Of a stretch of 64,000 bases of DNA, positions 1,586-41,786 are shown piece by piece. The position numbers were made by a program, and so were the translations under genes. A model generated the notes under the pieces. The model was not told the DNA's origin, ran no database searches, and saw nothing but the letters and a program-made list of their open reading frames with translations. The DNA is taken from assembly GCF_030013595.1 (NCBI RefSeq), contig NZ_CP122768.1. The stretch is one strand, 5' to 3'. Each line of letters starts with the position of its first letter. Within the stretch, counting starts at the first letter, position 1. Source of the stretch: Escherichia coli. GTDB taxonomy: Bacteria; Pseudomonadota; Gammaproteobacteria; Enterobacterales; Enterobacteriaceae.

Positions 1586-3130
1586 TTACCCCTGTTGCTG
1601 CGTCGGTTGTTCACTCTGCATCGCGCTCGGCCCCAGACGGGCATATTTCTGCATCAGGTAGACTTCGGCGATTAAGAACAGGGTGTAAAGCCCTACGATC
1701 ATGATCAGTGAGAAAGCCAGTTGTCCTGTGGTTAAAGCGGAGTGCGCGGAGTATGTCGGTAAGATGTCCTGTATCGCCCACGGCTGACGACCAAACTCGG
1801 TCATAAACCACCCGGCTTCAATCGCAATCCACGGCAGCGGCAAACTCCAGAGCGCCATTTTCAGCACCCAGCGATGCTGGTCGATTTTGCCACGCAGCGT
1901 CTGGACAAGCGCAATAAGCATCACCAGTAGCAGCAGGGAACCACAGCCCACCATGATGCGGAAACTCCAGAATACCGGCGCAACCTGAGGTATCGCGCCA
2001 CGCATCGCCGCCTGGTACTGTGCGGCTGTGACATGATTCATATCCGGCGCATAGCGGGAGAGCAACATGCCGTAGCCCAGGTCGCCTTCCAGCTCCCGGA
2101 ATGCCTGCAACATATGCGGCTCTCGATTGCCTTGCGATATTTCCTGCATTAACAGCCAGGCCATACGTCCGCGTTGCAAGCGTGGGTAGGTTTCAGCCAT
2201 CAAATTCTTCAGACCCGGCACGGGTTTATCTAATGAGTGAGTGGCGAGGATCCCTAGCAGCGCGGGAATTTTGATGGCAAAGGCGTTACGCTCTTGATCC
2301 TGTTCCGGCCAGGCAACCACATGGAACGGTGCAGGTGCAGGTTCCGTTTGCCACTCCCCTTCCATCGCCGCCAGTTTTACCGGTTGTACTTGCGCGACTT
2401 CATACGCCGAACTGTCTCCGAGTTGCAGCGTACCGATAATCGCCAGAGTACCGAAGACGGAACCGATGGCAAACGAGCGTAATGCAACATCGCGCTCCCG
2501 TCCGCGCAGTAAATACCAGGCGCTGATCGCCATAATAAACATGGCCCCGGTCACGTAGCCCGCCATTACGGTGTGTACAAATTTCACCTGGCTGACCGGG
2601 TTAAAGACCAGCTCGCTGAAGCTGGTCATTTCCATGCGCAGGGTGTCGATATCAAAATGCGCACCGGTCGGGTATTGCATCCAACCGTTGGCATTCAATA
2701 TCCACAATGCAGAGAGATTTGAACCGAACGCCACCAGCCACGTCACCAGCAGGTGCTGGTATTTATTCAGCCGCTGCCAGCCGAAGAAGAACAGCCCGAC
2801 AAAGGTGGATTCGAGGAAGAAGGCCATTAATGCTTCCATCGCCAGCGGTGCGCCAAAAATATCGCCCACATAGTTGGAATAGAATGACCAGTTAGTACCA
2901 AACTGAAACTCCATGGTCAGGCCGGTAGCCACGCCAAGAGCAAAGTTGATACCGAAGAGCTTACCCCAGAAGCGCGTCATATCGCGGTAGATTGTTTTGC
3001 CGGTGACCACGTAAATGGTTTCCATGATAGCTAGCAAAAAAATCAGCCCCAGGGTAAGGGGTACAAATAAGAAGTGATACAGCGCGGTCAGAGCAAACTG
3101 CCAGCGCGATAAATCAATGACATCCCACAT
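1586..3130 (-). CDS. appC: cytochrome bd-II ubiquinol oxidase subunit I
   Basis: 514-aa ORF beginning [20 protein letters not shown] (second Met of the 516-aa track ORF); CydA-family sequence. Confidence 0.95.
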
Positions 3131-3263
3131 GCGCACTCCTGTAGGCGAAGAGAGAAAAATAACCCGTTAATGGTAGATCTCCCTCTTTATCCTGAAACTC
3201 TACGACCAGAGGTATTCGCCGATTGCGATATTCATAAGCCTGAAAGCGATACTTACCGTCTTT

Positions 3264-4121
3264 TTACGACGGTGCCCCTTCCGCCAGCCACTGACATACC
3301 TCACTAAGCCGCTGCGCAGAGTCGACCAAATCTTCTGGCGCTGCCAGAACCACTTCCGGTATCGGGCAGATTTCATAACTCTCAAGTAACGGGCCTTTTA
3401 AGGTGTCCGTGCAGCGTAAATGCCAGACATGGCGTAACCCCGTGGCGTTGATATAGCTCTCGCCATAGCCAATGGTGCGAATCTGAATATTTCCCGGCCC
3501 ACAGAGACGTGAGAGAAAAAGCCGATCAGCCTCGCTGATAGGTAATTGCGTCAGATTAATGCTGTGCGGCTGCGCGTCAGGATTACGTACATGTGCCAGT
3601 AATTCATGAGCCAACGGTAGGCCATTCATCAGGCCATCGATGGGCGGCGGTAACAGCGAATCTGTCGGCAAGACGTTTTGCGTTGCCGCCTGCCACAATG
3701 CCAGCGGCGCGCAGCCAGCCTCCAGTTTGTCCTCCAGCAACTTGTCGCCGCGACGTCTGCGCACCCGCCATAATCCGCAGAAGATCGCCTCCTGTATTTC
3801 ACTTTCACTGTCGTCAGCCTGCTGTATGCGCACTGACACTTCCCCTTCCCCGAGAAGCGTATTGATAAAGTGACGATCGTCGGCGTTGAGATTTAACAGA
3901 TCGACTGCCAGCACCTCGCCCAACGGCGGCTGGCGTTCGCTTAGTTGATGTTGTAACTCGTTTAACAGCGCAATCACCTGCGGGCTGTGAGCACATTGCT
4001 CCAGGGCCGCCATACTCGGTTCATCATTCACCTGACAGGTGATCGGCAGTGGATTCATGCTGAAACTGTCATCGTTCGGTTGCGTTCCTGGCCCCAGCAG
4101 ATGGAAAAAAGTTTCGCTCAT
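3264..4121 (-). CDS. hyaF: hydrogenase-1 operon protein HyaF
   Basis: 285-aa ORF from [14 protein letters not shown] (internal Met of track ORF 3264..4181); ATGA overlap with hyaE stop. Confidence 0.9.
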
Positions 4122-28043: not shown

Positions 28044-31724
<3,681 letters not shown>

Positions 31725-31750
<26 letters not shown>

Positions 31751-32270
31751 TCAGCAACCCCGGTATCAGTTCATCCAGCGCGGCTGCTTTGTTCATGGCT
31801 TTGATGATATCCCGTTTCAGGAAATCAACATGTCGGTTTTCCAGTTCCGGAAAACGCCGCTGCACCGACAGGGGGATCCCGTCGAGAATACTGGCAATTT
31901 CACCTGCGATCCGCGACAGCACGAAAGTACAGAATGCGGTTTCCACCACTTCAGCTGAGTCTCTGGCATTCTTCAGTTCCTGTGCGTCGGCCTGCGCACG
32001 CGTAAGTCGATGGCGTTCGTACTCAATAGTCCCTGGCTGGAGATCTGCCTCGCTGGCCTGGCGCAGTTCTTCAACCTCCCGGCGCAGCTTTTCGTTCTCA
32101 ATTTCAGCATCCCTTTCGGCATACCATTTTATAACGGCGGCAGAGTCATAAAGCACCTCATTACCCTTGCCACCGCCTCGCAGAACGGGCATTCCCTGTT
32201 CCTGCCAGTTCTGAATGGTACGGATACTCGCACCGAAAATGTCAGCCAGCTGCTTTTTGTTGACTTCCAT
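31725..32270 (-). CDS. Nu1: terminase small subunit Nu1
   Basis: 181-aa ORF MEVNKKQLADIFGASIRTIQNWQEQGMPVLRGGGKGNEV..., lambda Nu1 with N-terminal wHTH; 26-bp overlap with A as in lambda. Confidence 0.92.
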
Positions 32271-32459: not shown

Positions 32460-32863
32460 CGTGGCAGGCCACCCCACCGGAAGGACCCGCACAAATGAGA
32501 GTGATTATCACCATTGCTGATGAATAAATTGATGAAAATCATTAAAACGCCTTTCAGCAAGATAACGGCGACGGTCGTTGTTGCACTCCGTAACTCTGCG
32601 ACTAAGGTTAAAAGCATGGCCCTCTTTTGCCACCGGCAAATCTTCAATGGATTTCCCCTGCCGGTTTTTTATTTTCGTCGATGCATAACATTGCATTTAC
32701 ATCAATAGCGGCTATTGTCATTAGTATGTTGCATAAATGCATGGGTGGTATTGGCGGTCTTCGCCGGCCGGTTCTGTGTAGCTGGACCGTTTTTTTATTT
32801 CTCACATTACAGCAGCCCCTTAGAGTGAAGGGCTGCTGTAATGCCGCAATCTTTTTTAACATG

Positions 32864-32883
32864 AAAAAGGCCGCAGAGCGGCC
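32864..32883 (-). terminator. candidate rho-independent terminator for the int-cargo transcript
   Basis: Hairpin GGCCGC-AGA-GCGGCC (32869..32883) preceded on the plus strand by AAAAA, i.e. followed by a U-run on the minus strand; about 125 bp after the 146-aa ORF stop. Confidence 0.5.
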
Positions 32884-33008
32884 ATAAACACAAGTAAAAA
32901 TCAATAAGTTATATAATTATCAAAGACTTACAGACACACAAAAACACAGCCAACCACAACAAATAACAGGGATGTGGTCATTTTGTGGATCATATCGCCG
33001 CCATAAAT

Positions 33009-33446
33009 TTACTTAATAACAGTAACCACAGCCACAAGCACGGCCATCGCAGACAGGACAATACCTGTGAGTAACCAAGTCTGATTTGCAAATGATTTCT
33101 GAAGTTCAGTACGATGCTCAGCCATCTCAACTTTCAGAGACTGGCGTAAATCAGCCATCTCAGACTTCAGGGATTGGCGCGATTCTGCCATCTCAAGCCT
33201 CAACCCTTCGCGAATCTCCAGTACATCAGATTTGGTAGCAAAGGATTCGCTTCTTGTGGTGAGAGTAATCAGGTTGTTTTTGATTTCAGTCACATCACTT
33301 TCCAGGCAACTGACCCGCCGTTCAAGGTCGTCATTCATGCCATCACCTCCATCATTACCACTTCCTGTTACTTGGTTGTTGGATACATTATAGGCATTCT
33401 CTTTCTTTTTTCTGAACCGCGAAATATGTGCAACATTCTCTGCCAT
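33009..33446 (-). CDS. hypothetical coiled-coil protein with C-terminal transmembrane anchor
   Basis: ORF ...LEIREGLRLEMAESRQSLKSEMADLRQSLKVEMAEHRTELQKSFANQTWLLTGIVLSAMAVLVAVVTVIK; ATG shares one base with the upstream stop (TGATG); family not recognised. Confidence 0.55.
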   Translation of the reverse strand: MAENVAHISRFRKKKENAYNVSNNQVTGSGNDGGDGMNDDLERRVSCLESDVTEIKNNLITLTTRSESFATKSDVLEIREGLRLEMAESRQSLKSEMADLRQSLKVEMAEHRTELQKSFANQTWLLTGIVLSAMAVLVAVVTVIK

Positions 33447-33808
33447 CACTTCTCATCACCCTGCTTGCCTACCCAGTTCATAAAGGCCCGGGCCGAGTAA
33501 CGATGAACAAACCCACATCTGTTACAGGTAAGTCGGAATTCATAGTTATGGATATTTTCCCGATCATGTCCCTCATATCCCGGATACCCAGTAAATGGAC
33601 CGATGTAATCAAGCATAACAAAAGTGCCTAAATCACACTCCTCAGCAGTTTTCGGCTCAGGCCCCACCTCAACAATATTCGTCAAATACATGTACATATC
33701 CGTATCGCCACACGACAAACATTTTTCATTCGTAGACGACTCATTGAGAAAACGCGCAAAATTATCGAGCGTTGCCATTCTTTTAAGTTCATCTAAATGA
33801 AACTTCAC
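33446..33808 (-). CDS. hypothetical Cys-rich protein (two CxxC pairs), translationally coupled to int
   Basis: 120-aa ORF with CLSCGD and CNRCGF; GTG start 2 nt after the int stop, preceded by AGGAGG inside the int 3' end. Confidence 0.55.
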   Translation of the reverse strand: MKFHLDELKRMATLDNFARFLNESSTNEKCLSCGDTDMYMYLTNIVEVGPEPKTAEECDLGTFVMLDYIGPFTGYPGYEGHDRENIHNYEFRLTCNRCGFVHRYSARAFMNWVGKQGDEK

Positions 33809-33810
33809 TC

Positions 33811-34788
33811 TTAAGCACCTCCTAGTGGATTAAACCTCACCGCATCCTGCAGGTAATCCGGCGCAAGATGGGCATAAATCATCGTTGTCTGAATCTTTGC
33901 GTGCCCCAGAATTTTCTGGAGCGTCAGAATATTGCCGCCGTTCATCATGAAATGACTGGCGAAGGTATGGCGCAGCGCATGAACAGCCTGGCCGTCAGGA
34001 ACATCAGGTGCGACCGTTTTGATGACATCGCGAACCAATGGATAATCCAGCGTCGGAAACACCAGTTTCCCGCCCCGTATTTTGATCTTTTCAAACAGGC
34101 TTTCAGAAATAGGAACGGTACGGTTTTTGCTGTTCTTCGTTTTTGAAAAAGTGATTCGACAATGAAGAACACGGCGCTGCTCTAGTGCCGCTACCTCGCC
34201 CCATCGCGCCCCGGTCGACAGAAGGATTTCGACAGCCAGCCGTTCATCGGGATTTTCAGCCAGTGCATCCAGCAACTGAACACATTCAGACTTACTCAGA
34301 TATCCCATTTCGCGCTCGTTAACCTTCATTCCTTTAAGGCCTTGAACGGGGTTATCGTTAAGAAAATGGCCGGATGAGATGAGTGCGGTAAACATCGCGC
34401 TTAACGCCCCAATCTCTCGATTTATGGTGCTGGGCTGTATCCCCTGCTCTATCCTGGACACACGTAGCTCGGTGAGCATCGTTGTATTAAGTTTATGCAC
34501 GCACGGGTCATCCATTGCCTCACTCAAGCGCAGCAATTTAAGGCGCGTGTTATGCCCTGACTTCATTAGCTGGCCGTGGTATTTCCACCACAAGTCAATA
34601 AGCACTGACAGCGGGCGGCGATCAATGGAGTTTCCTTTCCACTCATTGTTATGCTGTTGCGCCAGCACCCACCGCTCATATAAAACTGCATCCGATTTCG
34701 TTTTAAATTTTTTGCGAATGCGTTTGCCTTTACGCCCCTCAGGACGCATGTCAAGAAGATACCCTCCCGGAATTGATTTTATGCTCAT
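33811..34788 (-). CDS. int: tyrosine integrase, P2 Int family
   Basis: Starts MSIKSIPGGYLLDMRPEGRKGKRIRKKFKTKSDAV (compare P2 Int MAIKKLDDGRYEVDIRPTGRNGKRIRRKF); catalytic ...HALRHTFASH... and ...TTMIYAHL... motifs. Confidence 0.9.
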   Translation of the reverse strand: MSIKSIPGGYLLDMRPEGRKGKRIRKKFKTKSDAVLYERWVLAQQHNNEWKGNSIDRRPLSVLIDLWWKYHGQLMKSGHNTRLKLLRLSEAMDDPCVHKLNTTMLTELRVSRIEQGIQPSTINREIGALSAMFTALISSGHFLNDNPVQGLKGMKVNEREMGYLSKSECVQLLDALAENPDERLAVEILLSTGARWGEVAALEQRRVLHCRITFSKTKNSKNRTVPISESLFEKIKIRGGKLVFPTLDYPLVRDVIKTVAPDVPDGQAVHALRHTFASHFMMNGGNILTLQKILGHAKIQTTMIYAHLAPDYLQDAVRFNPLGGA

Positions 34789-34837: not shown

Positions 34838-35149
34838 TTAGCCGGGCTGTGTGCCAGTCTTGCGGGATTTTTGAGAAGACGATGTGTTTTCTGGCCCATC
34901 AGGGGAGAGAGAAGGACTGATCTGCCCAGCAGCCTCATTTGTTTCGTTACTCATCAACCACGTAGTGTATTTTTTAAATTCCGGGTGCATTGTGATTTTC
35001 AGTAAAACCTCCGTTCCCACACCTCGAATACCAGTCTCGTATTGCTTAACCGTACCAACCGCAATACCTATTGAATCCGCGAACTTTGCCTGACTAAGCC
35101 CCTCAGATTCTCGAATTGCTTTTAGCTTCTTTGATATCTCTATTGACAT
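34838..35149 (-). CDS. C: immunity repressor C (P2 C family HTH)
   Basis: 103-aa ORF MSIEISKKLKAIRESEGLSQAKFADSIGIAVGTVKQYETG...HPEFKKYTTWLMSNE...GQISPSL, resembles P2 C; directly upstream of int on the same strand. Confidence 0.75.
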   Translation of the reverse strand: MSIEISKKLKAIRESEGLSQAKFADSIGIAVGTVKQYETGIRGVGTEVLLKITMHPEFKKYTTWLMSNETNEAAGQISPSLSPDGPENTSSSQKSRKTGTQPG

Positions 35150-35244
35150 GGTGTGCACCTGAATACTATATTGGTTATCAGTTGAGTACCACTTGACACT
35201 ACAAAGAGCCACAAATAGCACCAGATTGAATAGGTTATCACACC
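35150..35244. promoter_or_regulatory. divergent C / cox switch region with direct repeats
   Basis: 95-bp interval between divergent C and cox starts; AT(T/A)GGTTATCA at 35170..35181 and 35230..35241 flank a TTGACA at 35193..35198. Confidence 0.5.
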
Positions 35245-35523
35245 ATGGCAAAAGTCCTTAACACATACGAACAAGCGGATTTTGAGCGTTTGGCGGCGTT
35301 CTACCCATACCGTAATGAACATGGGCTACCGGTACTTGAAGAAAGCCTGGAGGATTATGCGAAACGCACAAATCAAAGCATTCTCGCTGTAAGAAGGCAG
35401 GCTGATAGATCGGTAATTCCCGTTACTCAAGAAGGAAGAAACACAAAACGCAAAGTAAATCTCTTCGCAATTTTCCTGAAAACCATCAGAAACGCAGAGA
35501 AATACGTGCAAATGACAAAATAA
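35245..35523 (+). CDS. cox: Cox/Apl-like excisionase-regulator (putative)
   Basis: 92-aa ORF first in the rightward early operon; central ...YAKRTNQSILAVRRQADRSVIPV... resembles the P2 Cox HTH segment. Confidence 0.55.
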   Translation: MAKVLNTYEQADFERLAAFYPYRNEHGLPVLEESLEDYAKRTNQSILAVRRQADRSVIPVTQEGRNTKRKVNLFAIFLKTIRNAEKYVQMTK

Positions 35524-40482: not shown

Positions 40483-41442
40483 ATGAAAATTTGTATCGAC
40501 GACGGCTCCACCAACATCAAGCTGGCATGGACTGAGAACGGCGAACGCCGCAACGCCATCAGCCCGAACAGCTTCAAGTCGGAATGGTCTGCGCCGTTCG
40601 GCGGCACGCAGCCCGCGAACTACATGCTTGATGGCGTGCGCTATGGTTTTGATCCGGTCAGCGATCGCTTTGTCCAGACGACCGACACGCAATACCAGTA
40701 CAGCGATGTAAATGTCATTGCCATTCATCACGCGCTGGTCAAATCAGGCATCACGCCACAGGAGGTGGATGTGGTTGTCACCCTGCCACTGAGCGAGTAT
40801 TTCGACACAAACGCACAGCCGGACATGGCCAACATCAACCGCAAAAAAGCGAACGTTATGCGCCCGGTGGAGTACCAGAACGGCGAAGCATTCACTATCC
40901 GTAACGTGCGGGTTATGCCTGAATCCATTCCGGCTGGCTTTAAAGCACTGGCTGACATGAGTCCGTTTGAATCCCTGCTGATTGTGGATTTAGGTGGAAC
41001 CACGCTGGATGTGGCAAAGGTTCAGGGACAACTGGCAGGTATCAGCCAGGTGTTTTGCGATCCACACGTAGGCGTTTCCCTGATGGCCGATGCAGTACTG
41101 TCGGTGATGGCCACTAACGGTATGCGTACCAGTCACCACATCGCCAATACCATTATCGAACATCGCCATGATGAAGCCTGGCTGCGCCAGCACATCCACA
41201 ATGACGCGCATTACGCCAGCCTGATGGCGGTTATTCGTGAAAAGGAAGAAACACTGAAACAACGCGTGATCCGCGCGCTGGCGGGTTTTTCGGGTTACGG
41301 GCGGGTGATGGTTGTCGGTGGCGGGGCGGAGATTGTGGCACCCGCTATCCGCGAAGCCTGCGGAGTTAATGCGACTTTCATCGCGGACGGGGTGCCACAG
41401 TTTGCTCTGGTTAATGGGCTGTACGCAATGGACAAGGAGTAA
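40483..41442 (+). CDS. parM: ParM/StbA-family actin-like ATPase
   Basis: 319-aa ORF MKICIDDGSTNIKLAW...NSFKSEW...YSDVNVIAIHHAL...VMPESIPAG...IVDLGGTTLD...VVGGGAE...LVNG, alignable throughout with R1/R100 ParM/StbA. Confidence 0.85.
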   Translation: MKICIDDGSTNIKLAWTENGERRNAISPNSFKSEWSAPFGGTQPANYMLDGVRYGFDPVSDRFVQTTDTQYQYSDVNVIAIHHALVKSGITPQEVDVVVTLPLSEYFDTNAQPDMANINRKKANVMRPVEYQNGEAFTIRNVRVMPESIPAGFKALADMSPFESLLIVDLGGTTLDVAKVQGQLAGISQVFCDPHVGVSLMADAVLSVMATNGMRTSHHIANTIIEHRHDEAWLRQHIHNDAHYASLMAVIREKEETLKQRVIRALAGFSGYGRVMVVGGGAEIVAPAIREACGVNATFIADGVPQFALVNGLYAMDKE

Positions 41443-41446
41443 ACCA

Positions 41447-41758
41447 ATGACGACACCAACCAGACGGATAAGTTTCTATCTGAAGCCCGCCGCCGTCAAG
41501 AACGAAGGCGAAGCATGCGCCTGGCTGGACAGCCTTACACCAGAAGCCCGCAAAAGCGGCCAACGTGTGGCTTTTCTGGCCGGGCTGGCACTTCTGAAAA
41601 TGAATCCGGCAGAGGCTTACCGACTGGCTGCATGGGCTGACGATGAGGCGTTATCAGTGACACAAACCAGGACAGAACGCCCCGCGTCACAGCCAGTACC
41701 AACCACACAGATAACCAGTCGGATGGCCGGAAATATCAGGGCGTTATTTCCCGAATAA
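41447..41758 (+). CDS. parR: ParR/StbB-like adaptor protein (putative ribbon-helix-helix)
   Basis: 103-aa ORF MTTPTRRISFYLKPAAVKNEGEACAWLDSLTPEARKSGQRVAFLAGLALL...; AAGGAG 7 nt upstream, 4 bp after parM stop; N-terminal pattern resembles R1 ParR. Confidence 0.65.
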   Translation: MTTPTRRISFYLKPAAVKNEGEACAWLDSLTPEARKSGQRVAFLAGLALLKMNPAEAYRLAAWADDEALSVTQTRTERPASQPVPTTQITSRMAGNIRALFPE

Positions 41759-41786
41759 CACAACATCAGGGCGCATCCGCCCTGAT
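41735..41786. repeat. ATCAGGGCG direct repeat plus a 9-bp-stem hairpin at the parR 3' end
   Basis: ATCAGGGCG at 41735..41743 and 41765..41773; inverted copy CGCCCTGAT at 41778..41786 forms a hairpin with a CATC loop. Confidence 0.55.

What the first reader, a model, noticed from the sequence alone, without database searches (positions are those of the whole stretch)
33009..33808. Two-gene cargo translationally coupled to the P2-like integrase
Directly after the integrase stop (33811..33813) a 120-aa ORF starts 2 nt later at GTG, with an AGGAGG site inside the integrase 3' end. Its stop overlaps the start of a 146-aa ORF (TGATG), and a terminator follows about 125 bp later. The first protein has two CxxC pairs 75 residues apart (possible zinc ribbon); the second is a heptad-repeat coiled coil ending in a single transmembrane helix, resembling small membrane-anchored phage lysis or exclusion factors. 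P2 has nothing between int and its attachment site, so this is accessory cargo expressed from the lysogenic int transcript, the expression pattern expected for a superinfection-exclusion or abortive-infection module.
Basis: partly seen in the sequence, partly recalled or inferred. Interest (0 to 1): 0.6.

Follow-up and report, generated by a model that had tools for sequence, protein, structure and literature searches.

The report
Conserved two-gene cargo behind prophage integrase
Two small, tightly coupled genes of unknown function (a zinc-binding protein and a membrane-anchored coiled-coil protein) sit as a swappable cassette between the integrase and the end of a P2-family prophage, a place where such phages carry accessory genes, but nothing yet shows what they do.

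Summary
Two real genes follow the integrase on the minus strand: ORF1 (33446..33808, 120 aa) and ORF2 (33009..33446, 145 aa). A hairpin terminator at 32864..32883 is also the prophage's left attachment core. They belong to the P88/P2-like prophage, not to the neighbouring lambdoid one.

- **ORF1** is soluble, with four invariant cysteines (phrog_4293). Its confident AF2 model has no characterised structural relative.
- **ORF2** is a tail-anchored coiled coil of the DUF1640/CCDC90-like kind (phrog_9415). It has an FATKSD beta-layer motif and a variable number of 11-residue repeats. A conserved internal start with its own GGAGG suggests a second, shorter isoform.
- **The pair** recurs across Enterobacterales with abutting or overlapping stop and start codons, nearly always in the repressor-integrase operon.
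- **Cassette behaviour.** About 298 of 5,426 E. coli genomes carry this integrase. Between identical flanks they hold this allele (85), a roughly 25%-identical allele of the same pair (23-39), or an unrelated gene (158).

The integrase-att interval is a published minor defence hotspot of P2-like phages. No known defence, toxin-antitoxin or lysis family matches. Accessory, lysogeny-expressed cargo is well supported; an exclusion or abortive-infection role is only an inference from position.

The parts
34838..35149 (-). cI/C-type HTH repressor, first gene of the presumed lysogenic operon
   Evidence: phrog_147 E 1e-33. Annotated as a 103-aa HTH regulator at the equivalent place in STEC1585 (L001 7975..8286).
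33811..34788 (-). P2-family tyrosine integrase (325 aa from MSIKSIPGG)
   Evidence: phrog_1 E 8e-72. Annotated as phage integrase in relatives. Present at >=95% identity in about 298 of 5,426 E. coli genomes.
33818..33823 (-). AGGAGG ribosome-binding site for ORF1, inside the integrase 3' end
   Evidence: Read directly; it lies 9 nt before GTG 33808.
33446..33808 (-). ORF1: soluble 120-aa protein with four invariant cysteines (C30, C33, C95, C98), phrog_4293
   Evidence: invariant C, G99, W112; AF2 pLDDT 81.6, pTM 0.73; dN/dS 0.11; no hydrophobic segment; all five diverged ORF1-like proteins scanned hit phrog_4293.
33009..33446 (-). ORF2: 145-aa tail-anchored coiled-coil protein, phrog_9415, DUF1640/CCDC90-like
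33339..33446 (-). ORF2 N-terminal extension (residues 1-36): variable peptide plus Gly-rich linker
   Evidence: Open in all 12 alleles: 0 stops in 430 codons against 19 and 65 in the other two frames. dN/dS 0.23. In the window vs L019 comparison it diverges together with ORF1 (both 28% identical, rest of ORF2 81%).
33336..33350 (-). Conserved internal start of ORF2: GGAGG (33350..33346), 7 nt, ATG for Met37 (33338..33336). It would give a 109-aa short form.
   Evidence: ATG in 11 of 12 alleles and GTG in the twelfth. GGAGG lies 4-7 nt upstream (7 nt in most) in 8 of the 11 alleles printed; the twelfth, L006, was not printed. Many database annotations start here.
33225..33242 (-). FATKSD beta-layer motif (ORF2 residues 69-74)
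   Evidence: K72 and D74 are invariant. Consensus [aliphatic]-A-T-K-[polar]-[DE] from PMC4786415. The AF2 helix breaks at residues 67-71.
33118..33196 (-). 33-bp tandem repeat encoding the hendecad EMAxxRQSLKx; copy number differs between alleles
   Evidence: allele comparison.
33015..33080 (-). C-terminal transmembrane anchor of ORF2 (residues about 123-144)
   Evidence: KD19 2.65, one residue after the segment. All 12 homologues have the same layout.
32884..32998 (.). att-proximal arm, conserved whatever the cargo (presumed Int-binding P' arm)
   Evidence: Genomes with other cargo still match window 32864..32998 at 93-97%. In P2 the P' arm overlaps the int 3' end.
32864..32883 (-). Hairpin terminator GGCCGCTCTGCGGCC+T5, which is also the 20-bp attachment core and left end of the P2-like prophage
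   Evidence: terminator; the 20 bp are shared by the btuC-side junction and by uninterrupted lambdoid prophages.

Best explanation
The interval holds a mobile two-gene accessory cassette. It lies in the integrase-to-attL cargo site of a P88/P2-like prophage.

Shown:
- ORF1 is a soluble protein with four invariant cysteines.
- ORF2 is a tail-anchored membrane protein with a DUF1640-like coiled coil.
- The two genes are always adjacent, with abutting or overlapping stop and start codons.
- Both are under purifying selection.
- Between identical flanks they are exchanged for divergent alleles or for unrelated genes.

Inferred:
- They are transcribed with the repressor and integrase from the lysogenic promoter and terminated at the att-core hairpin, so they are made in lysogens.
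- ORF2 forms a trimeric stalk reaching from the inner membrane into the cytoplasm. A glycine hinge and a variable N-terminal peptide sit at its tip.
- ORF1 binds that tip. ORF1 and the N-terminal peptide diverge together in one recombinant allele.
- A conserved internal start may add a shorter ORF2 that lacks the tip, which would set how many ORF1-binding arms each trimer carries.

Most likely role, by position and allelic diversification only: competition with other phages (superinfection exclusion or abortive infection) acting at the cytoplasmic face of the inner membrane.
For: - Location and cassette behaviour.
- Published context: a 2026 preprint (10.64898/2026.02.27.708500) places 3% of P2 defence systems between int and att. 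Rousset 2022 (PMC9122126) describes a cI-int hotspot in K139-like phages.
- Pair conservation: directly after int; separated from int by one extra gene; upstream of int in the same operon in Citrobacter; in a myovirus tail cluster without int.
- Selection.
- Open N-terminal extension.
- Internal start.
- Tail anchor.
- DUF1640 link: with the motif from PMC4786415.
- Four invariant Cys and a confident model.
- Mosaic breakpoint at the glycine linker: window vs L019 is 28% identical in ORF1, 28% in the N-extension and 81% in the rest of ORF2.
- No terminator inside the operon and a strong one at the core.
Against: - There is no functional evidence of any kind.
- PADLOC, NCBIfam and Pfam give nothing significant for the window's two proteins.
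- An AF2 run on an ORF1-linker-ORF2 fusion gave no sign of docking: N-extension pLDDT 31-37, pTM 0.35.
- The lysogenic promoter was not located.
- GGAGG in a glycine-rich linker may partly be a by-product of Gly codons.
- The tight link to int in most lineages could mean a phage-own function rather than defence.
Confidence: 0.45

Rival explanations
1. The pair serves the phage's own lysogeny machinery. It might modulate integration, excision or prophage maintenance at the membrane, and so would not be cargo in the strict sense.
For: In 10 of 12 diverged loci the pair follows int (directly in 9, after one extra gene in L003); it lies directly upstream of int in an eleventh. Start codons overlap or abut the neighbouring stop. 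It always lies in the repressor-integrase operon of P2-related prophages.
Against: About 158 genomes with a >=95%-identical integrase carry an unrelated 131-aa gene instead. P2 and P88 have no gene there. The pair also occurs in a myovirus tail cluster without an integrase. The excisionase-like gene is elsewhere, at 35245..35523.
Confidence: 0.15
2. It is a toxin-antitoxin or addiction-type module. ORF2 would be a membrane-damaging toxin and ORF1 a zinc-ribbon antitoxin, stabilising the prophage or killing infected cells.
For: Two small genes with overlapping stop and start, the soluble one first. ORF2 carries a membrane anchor. There is distant, weak fold resemblance to YgiT/MqsA-type zinc fingers (E 6e-3 to 0.09, TM 0.3-0.4).
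Against: No match to any TA family in NCBIfam, Pfam or PADLOC. ORF2's conserved 90-residue coiled coil with a beta-layer is unlike known small membrane toxins. No promoter of its own was found upstream of ORF1.
Confidence: 0.15
3. It is a lysogenic-conversion factor unrelated to phages. A tail-anchored scaffold would alter host membrane or stress physiology, in the manner of E. coli tail-anchored proteins or mitochondrial MCUR1-type scaffolds.
For: ORF2 is related to the DUF1640/CCDC90-like family. Its eukaryotic members are inner-membrane scaffold proteins (PMC7519068). Another tail-anchored protein with an Flk_N domain sits beside the pair in Citrobacter.
Against: Highly divergent alleles between identical flanks fit an arms race better than housekeeping. 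No host-physiology domain was detected.
Confidence: 0.15
4. The ORFs are remnants of the neighbouring lambdoid prophage, or chance ORFs.
For: Lambdoid DNA (Nu1, terminase) begins only about 150 bp beyond ORF2.
Against: Homology to btuC-integrated P2-like prophages starts at 32864 and covers both ORFs. Lambdoid homology stops at 32883. Purifying selection and PHROG membership also speak against it.
Confidence: 0.01

Closest known systems
DUF1640 / CCDC90-like family (Pfam PF07798; MCUR1, CCDC90B and prokaryotic members)
   Same: Single C-terminal membrane anchor. Long coiled-coil stalk with an A-T-K-x-D beta-layer motif. Many close homologues of ORF2 are named DUF1640/CCDC90 or carry PF07798. 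The best PDB profile hits are beta-layer coiled-coil constructs.
   Different: The window protein itself scores only i-E 0.064 against PF07798. It has no N-terminal head domain; instead it has a glycine hinge and a variable peptide. It is prophage-borne, always paired with a zinc-binding partner, and may have a dual start.
Cargo hotspots of P2-like prophages (old, tin, Z/fun loci; the int-att and cI-int intervals)
   Same: A variable cassette between conserved phage flanks. The int-att interval is reported as a minor defence hotspot, and a cI-int hotspot exists in K139-like phages.
   Different: The proteins match no known defence system, and no phenotype is known.
Lysogeny-expressed exclusion genes of temperate phages (K139 glo, HK97 gp15, P22 sieA, lambda sieB/rex) - recalled from my own knowledge; glo is called the K139-family immunity gene in PMC4870250
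   Same: Small envelope-associated proteins made from the prophage in the lysogenic state. glo lies in the control region next to int of a P2-related phage.
   Different: No sequence or fold similarity. Glo is periplasmic, whereas ORF2's bulk is predicted to be cytoplasmic.
Dual-start membrane proteins of phages (lambda S107/S105 holin-antiholin) - own knowledge
   Same: One reading frame with two conserved starts gives two forms of a membrane protein that differ at the N terminus.
   Different: Here the forms would differ by 36 residues, not 2. The gene is not in a lysis cassette, and the short form is only inferred.
YgiT/MqsA-type zinc-ribbon antitoxin domain
   Same: Four-cysteine zinc ribbon in a small protein encoded upstream of a partner gene.
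   Different: Only weak fold hits (TM 0.3-0.4). No HTH domain and no MqsR-like partner.

Membership tests
DUF1640 / CCDC90-like (PF07798) | Significant match to the Pfam HMM | tested here: inconclusive
   The window ORF2 scores i-E 0.064. One of 12 family members reaches E<=1e-3 and six reach <=0.1. Many homologues at E 1e-23 to 1e-43 carry precomputed PF07798 or the name DUF1640/CCDC90.
DUF1640 / CCDC90-like (PF07798) | Beta-layer motif [aliphatic]-A-T-K-[polar]-[DE] in the stalk | tested here: met
   FATKSD at residues 69-74, with K72 and D74 invariant. Consensus from PMC4786415. The first residue is aromatic rather than aliphatic. The AF2 helix breaks exactly there.
DUF1640 / CCDC90-like (PF07798) | C-terminal transmembrane anchor | tested here: met
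   one hydrophobic segment with 1-8 residues after it in all 12 homologues.
DUF1640 / CCDC90-like (PF07798) | Homotrimeric coiled coil | not testable with these tools
   Only monomer predictions were available. Trimer formation is inferred from the motif.
P2-like prophage cargo hotspot (int-att) | Lies between the integrase and the attachment site of a P2-family prophage | tested here: met
   P2 and P88 have no gene there.
P2-like prophage cargo hotspot (int-att) | Conserved flanks with different content in related prophages | tested here: met
   The same int (>=95%) and the same 130-nt att arm flank this allele (85 genomes), a divergent allele (23-39) or an unrelated gene (158)..
Anti-phage defence / superinfection exclusion system | Homology to a described defence protein | tested here: not met
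   PADLOC returned nothing for ORF1 and only one weak coiled-coil match (LmuB, E 0.0074) for ORF2. A divergent ORF2 allele gave only coiled-coil matches to ZorA, LmuB and LeoBC.
Anti-phage defence / superinfection exclusion system | Reduces infection by other phages | not testable with these tools
   Needs plating assays.
Type II toxin-antitoxin module | Homology to known toxin or antitoxin families | tested here: not met
   Only weak YgiT-type fold hits.
Zinc ribbon protein | Two CxxC knuckles conserved across the family | tested here: met
   C30, C33, C95 and C98 are invariant in 19 sequences. Metal binding itself was not tested.
XhlA / holin-associated lysis proteins | Pfam XhlA match and location in a lysis cassette | tested here: not met
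   No XhlA hit in the Pfam scans. The gene is in the lysogenic operon, not near lysis genes.

The most novel reading that the evidence does not exclude
The pair is a new, widespread, lysogeny-expressed anti-phage or exclusion system of Enterobacterales prophages. It would be built on a bacterial DUF1640/MCUR1-like tail-anchored trimeric stalk. A cognate zinc-ribbon partner would read out or arm the stalk's variable tip, and a dual start would tune the number of tips per trimer. If so, this would give the first function for prokaryotic DUF1640 proteins.
Probability: 0.25. Interest if true: 0.65.

Novelty: new member of a known kind. Interest (0 to 1): 0.4.

Why it matters
Cargo sites in P2-family prophages have been a productive source of new immune systems. 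This cassette is common: one allele alone is in 85 of 5,426 complete E. coli genomes, with relatives in Salmonella, Klebsiella, Citrobacter and others. Highly divergent alleles sit between identical flanks, and it matches nothing characterised, so it is a reasonable candidate for testing.

It would also give bacterial DUF1640 proteins a genetic context and a partner. Their mitochondrial relatives (MCUR1, CCDC90B) are still poorly understood. As it stands, though, it is one more pair of hypothetical proteins in a known type of hotspot.

Tried and rejected
- **Family libraries.** Pfam, NCBIfam and PADLOC scans of both proteins and of the alternative cargo genes gave nothing significant, only coiled-coil noise such as ZorA, LmuB and apolipoprotein.
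- **tblastn against 50,697 phage records.** One distant ORF1 hit (a Klebsiella P2-like episome) and none for ORF2.
- **PDB sequence profile for ORF1.** Nothing.
- **AF2 on an ORF1-linker-ORF2 fusion with a paired 12-row alignment**, to look for docking of the ORF2 N-terminal peptide. Mean pLDDT was 60.7 and the peptide scored 31-37, so it is uninformative.
- **Fused ORF1-ORF2 protein (phrog_3556 is 276 aa).** None appeared among the best 120 ORF2 homologues; the longest was 236 aa.
- **Internal promoter** (TTCAGA-18-TATAAT, 33416..33387). It is conserved only in the window's own clade, where it coincides with Tyr-Asn codons, so I give it little weight.
- **Lysogenic promoter Pc.** Not found by consensus.
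- **Literature.** A search for the RefSeq accessions found no paper. The K139 control-region paper (PMC93736) is not held.
- **The search for related loci.** With close sequences it returned only near-identical btuC-side prophages.

Full report
**1. What is in the sequence**

On the minus strand the integrase ends with TAA at 33813..33811. AGGAGG lies at 33823..33818, inside its last codons. ORF1 starts at GTG 33808 and runs to 33446 (120 aa). Its TGA shares one base with the ATG of ORF2 at 33446, and ORF2 runs to 33009 (145 aa, or 146 from the GTG at 33449). A hairpin followed by five T (GGCCGCTCTGCGGCC TTTTT, 32883..32864) lies 125 nt after the ORF2 stop. No other convincing terminator is predicted on that strand between the repressor gene and this point.

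**2. Which element the genes belong to**

- Homology to a P2-family prophage begins at window 32864 and covers both ORFs, the integrase, an HTH repressor and the early genes. In other E. coli strains this prophage lies next to btuC.
- The early genes match Xuanwuvirus/P88-type phages.
- Everything to the left of 32864 is a lambdoid prophage: Nu1 at 31725..32270, then terminase, then head and tail genes towards position 1.
- In P2 the Int-binding P' arm overlaps the 3' end of int, with no gene before attP. P88's int ends about 107 nt from the start of its record. The two ORFs are thus extra relative to the type phages.

**3. The genes are real and form a conserved pair**

ORF1 matches phrog_4293 (E 3e-30) and ORF2 matches phrog_9415 (E 1e-42). 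Both families have unknown function.

An exhaustive search found only 16 representative clusters for ORF1. The family alignment has four invariant cysteines, plus G99 and W112.

I collected 12 loci with an ORF1-like gene. In every one it is followed at once by an ORF2-like gene, with stop and start overlapping or abutting.

| Position of the pair | Loci |
|---|---|
| Directly after an integrase of a P2-like prophage, at several different chromosomal sites | 9 |
| After the integrase, with one extra gene in between | 1 (L003) |
| Upstream of the integrase but in the same repressor-integrase operon | 1 (Citrobacter, L020) |
| In a myovirus tail cluster, between the tape-measure gene and a DNA_circ_N gene | 1 (L006) |

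All five diverged ORF1-like proteins I scanned hit phrog_4293. Against a 72%-identical allele, dN/dS is 0.11 for ORF1, 0.23 for the first 36 codons of ORF2 and 0.12 for the rest.

**4. It behaves as an exchangeable cassette**

The integrase occurs at 95% identity or more in about 298 of 5,426 complete E. coli genomes. All of them also keep the 130 nt next to the att core. The interval between holds one of three main contents:

| Content between int and the att arm | Genomes |
|---|---|
| The window's allele | 85 |
| A roughly 25%-identical allele of the same two-gene module (O145, O103 strains) | 23-39 |
| One unrelated 131-aa gene, phrog_14142 (O104:H4, O111, O26 and others) | 158 |

A prophage with a 78%-identical integrase carries two other genes there. 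The breakpoints lie about 16 nt inside the end of int and 10-15 nt after the ORF2 stop.

A 2026 preprint reports the int-att interval of P2-like prophages as a minor defence hotspot, holding 3% of their systems. Rousset et al. describe a cI-int hotspot in K139-like phages.

**5. ORF1**

It has no hydrophobic segment. AF2 with 19 sequences gives pLDDT 81.6 and pTM 0.73: two N-terminal helices, a beta-sheet carrying the two CxxC knuckles, and a C-terminal helix.

- BFVD gives nothing below E 1e-2.
- AFDB50 returns almost only uncharacterised proteins of Enterobacterales and Aeromonas at TM about 0.7. YgiT/MqsA-type zinc fingers appear only as weak distant hits.

ORF1 is a zinc-ribbon-containing domain with no characterised relative.

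**6. ORF2**

All 12 homologues share the same layout:

- a variable N-terminal stretch of 29-46 residues
- a glycine-rich run
- a conserved Met
- a helix of the form LExRVxxLExDV
- the motif (F/L)-(A/S)-T-K-x-D, with K and D invariant
- further coiled coil of variable length
- a single hydrophobic segment with 1-8 residues after it, which makes it a tail-anchored protein whose bulk should stay in the cytoplasm

The motif matches the beta-layer consensus [aliphatic]-A-T-K-[polar]-[DE]. That consensus was described for trimeric coiled coils of the DUF3782 and DUF1640 families (PMC4786415). The family profile's best PDB matches are those beta-layer constructs: 7o92 at E 0.003, Tcar0761 (5apz) at 0.007, and 6h9l at 0.7. 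The AF2 helix breaks exactly at residues 67-71.

The window protein itself is only marginal against PF07798 (i-E 0.064). A profile search, however, finds 193 homologues, and many of them are named DUF1640 or CCDC90 family or carry PF07798. NCBI names the O145 allele DUF1640.

The 33-bp tandem repeat at 33118..33196 encodes the hendecad EMAxxRQSLKx. Alleles have fewer or more copies, so stalk length varies.

**7. A possible second start in ORF2**

The first 36 codons are open in all 12 alleles. There are no stops in 430 codons, against 19 and 65 in the other two frames. The product of the shuffle probabilities is 3e-13, which is overstated because some alleles are related. These codons are also under purifying selection. 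The long form, coupled to ORF1, is therefore translated.

The conserved Met is ATG in 11 alleles and GTG in the twelfth. In 8 of the 11 alleles printed it is preceded by GGAGG 4-7 nt upstream, most often 7 nt. In the window this reads GGAGGTGATGGC-ATG, 33350..33336. Many database entries start there, giving 109 aa.

This suggests, but does not prove, an in-frame short isoform. Glycine codons could produce part of the signal.

**8. ORF1 and the ORF2 tip travel together**

A Salmonella allele (L019) is 81% identical to the window in ORF2 after the glycine run. It is only 28% identical in the N-terminal stretch and 28% in ORF1. The recombination breakpoint is therefore at the linker, and ORF1 plus the ORF2 tip form one inherited unit. 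This is the basis for proposing that ORF1 binds the tip. A fused-chain AF2 run gave no support either way.

**9. Function**

Nothing links either protein to a known defence, toxin-antitoxin, lysis or exclusion family.

Three points favour a role in competition between phages: the position in a known cargo site, the inferred expression with the repressor, and the strongly diverged alleles between identical flanks. I put that at roughly 0.4-0.45.

The rivals are a role in the phage's own lysogeny, a toxin-antitoxin module, and a host-physiology factor. Each keeps real probability. The near-constant linkage to int is the main argument for the first of these. The replacement by unrelated genes and the int-free tail-cluster copy are the main arguments against it.

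**10. Verdict**

The cassette is a new, uncharacterised member of a known kind of locus. Interest is moderate.

Noticed in passing
window 32640..32960 (junction at 32864..32883): The P2-like prophage appears to be integrated inside a lambdoid prophage, between its lysis genes and cos/Nu1. Uninterrupted lambdoid prophages (e.g. ETEC1706, L018 2700..2760) read ...aacatgAAAAAGGCCGCAGAGCGGCCtttatgg. The window has the same 20 bp followed by P2-like DNA, and the same 20 bp form the btuC-side junction in other strains. None of 5,426 complete E. coli genomes has this junction. The right end lies beyond the window, so an assembly join cannot be excluded.
   Followed up: partly
window 30422..30424: The lambdoid large terminase gene (gpA) carries an in-frame stop codon...TLLRVD*AINKTYTRRNGAEMSVSRICWDTGGID. 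The lambdoid prophage is therefore probably defective. The relative in ETEC1706 is annotated as frameshifted.
   Followed up: partly
window 40483..41761: The P2-like prophage carries ParM-like and plasmid partitioning/stability genes after the replication gene, by equivalence with the STEC1585 annotation. A Klebsiella relative carrying the same two-gene module is deposited as a 32-kb 'plasmid'. Some of these phages may persist as episomes.
   Followed up: no
window 35173..35180 and about 35232..35241: A direct repeat, TGATAACC, flanks the region between the repressor start and the cox-like gene. These may be operator sites. A strong rightward promoter-like site (TTGACA-18-TATATT, 35143..35172) overlaps the repressor start, as Pe does in P2.
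   Followed up: no
L008 1128..1523; L009 1361..2501: Alternative cargo at the same int-att site: a 131-aa phrog_14142 protein in 158 E. coli genomes, including O104:H4, and a 257-aa plus 125-aa pair in strain 23CRST011. All are of unknown function and absent from PADLOC.
   Followed up: partly
L020 2502..3131; L003 1494..2111 and 3111..3947; L006 3045..3494: Other membrane or cargo genes accompany the pair in relatives: a tail-anchored Flk_N-domain protein just upstream in Citrobacter, a VasI-domain protein between repressor and int plus a 278-aa membrane protein after int in L003, and a 149-aa membrane protein in the tail-cluster copy.
   Followed up: no
window 33387..33416 (minus strand): A promoter-like site, TTCAGA-18-TATAAT, lies inside the ORF2 N-terminal extension, upstream of the internal start. 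TATAAT is kept only in the three alleles of the window's clade, where it encodes Tyr-Asn.
   Followed up: partly
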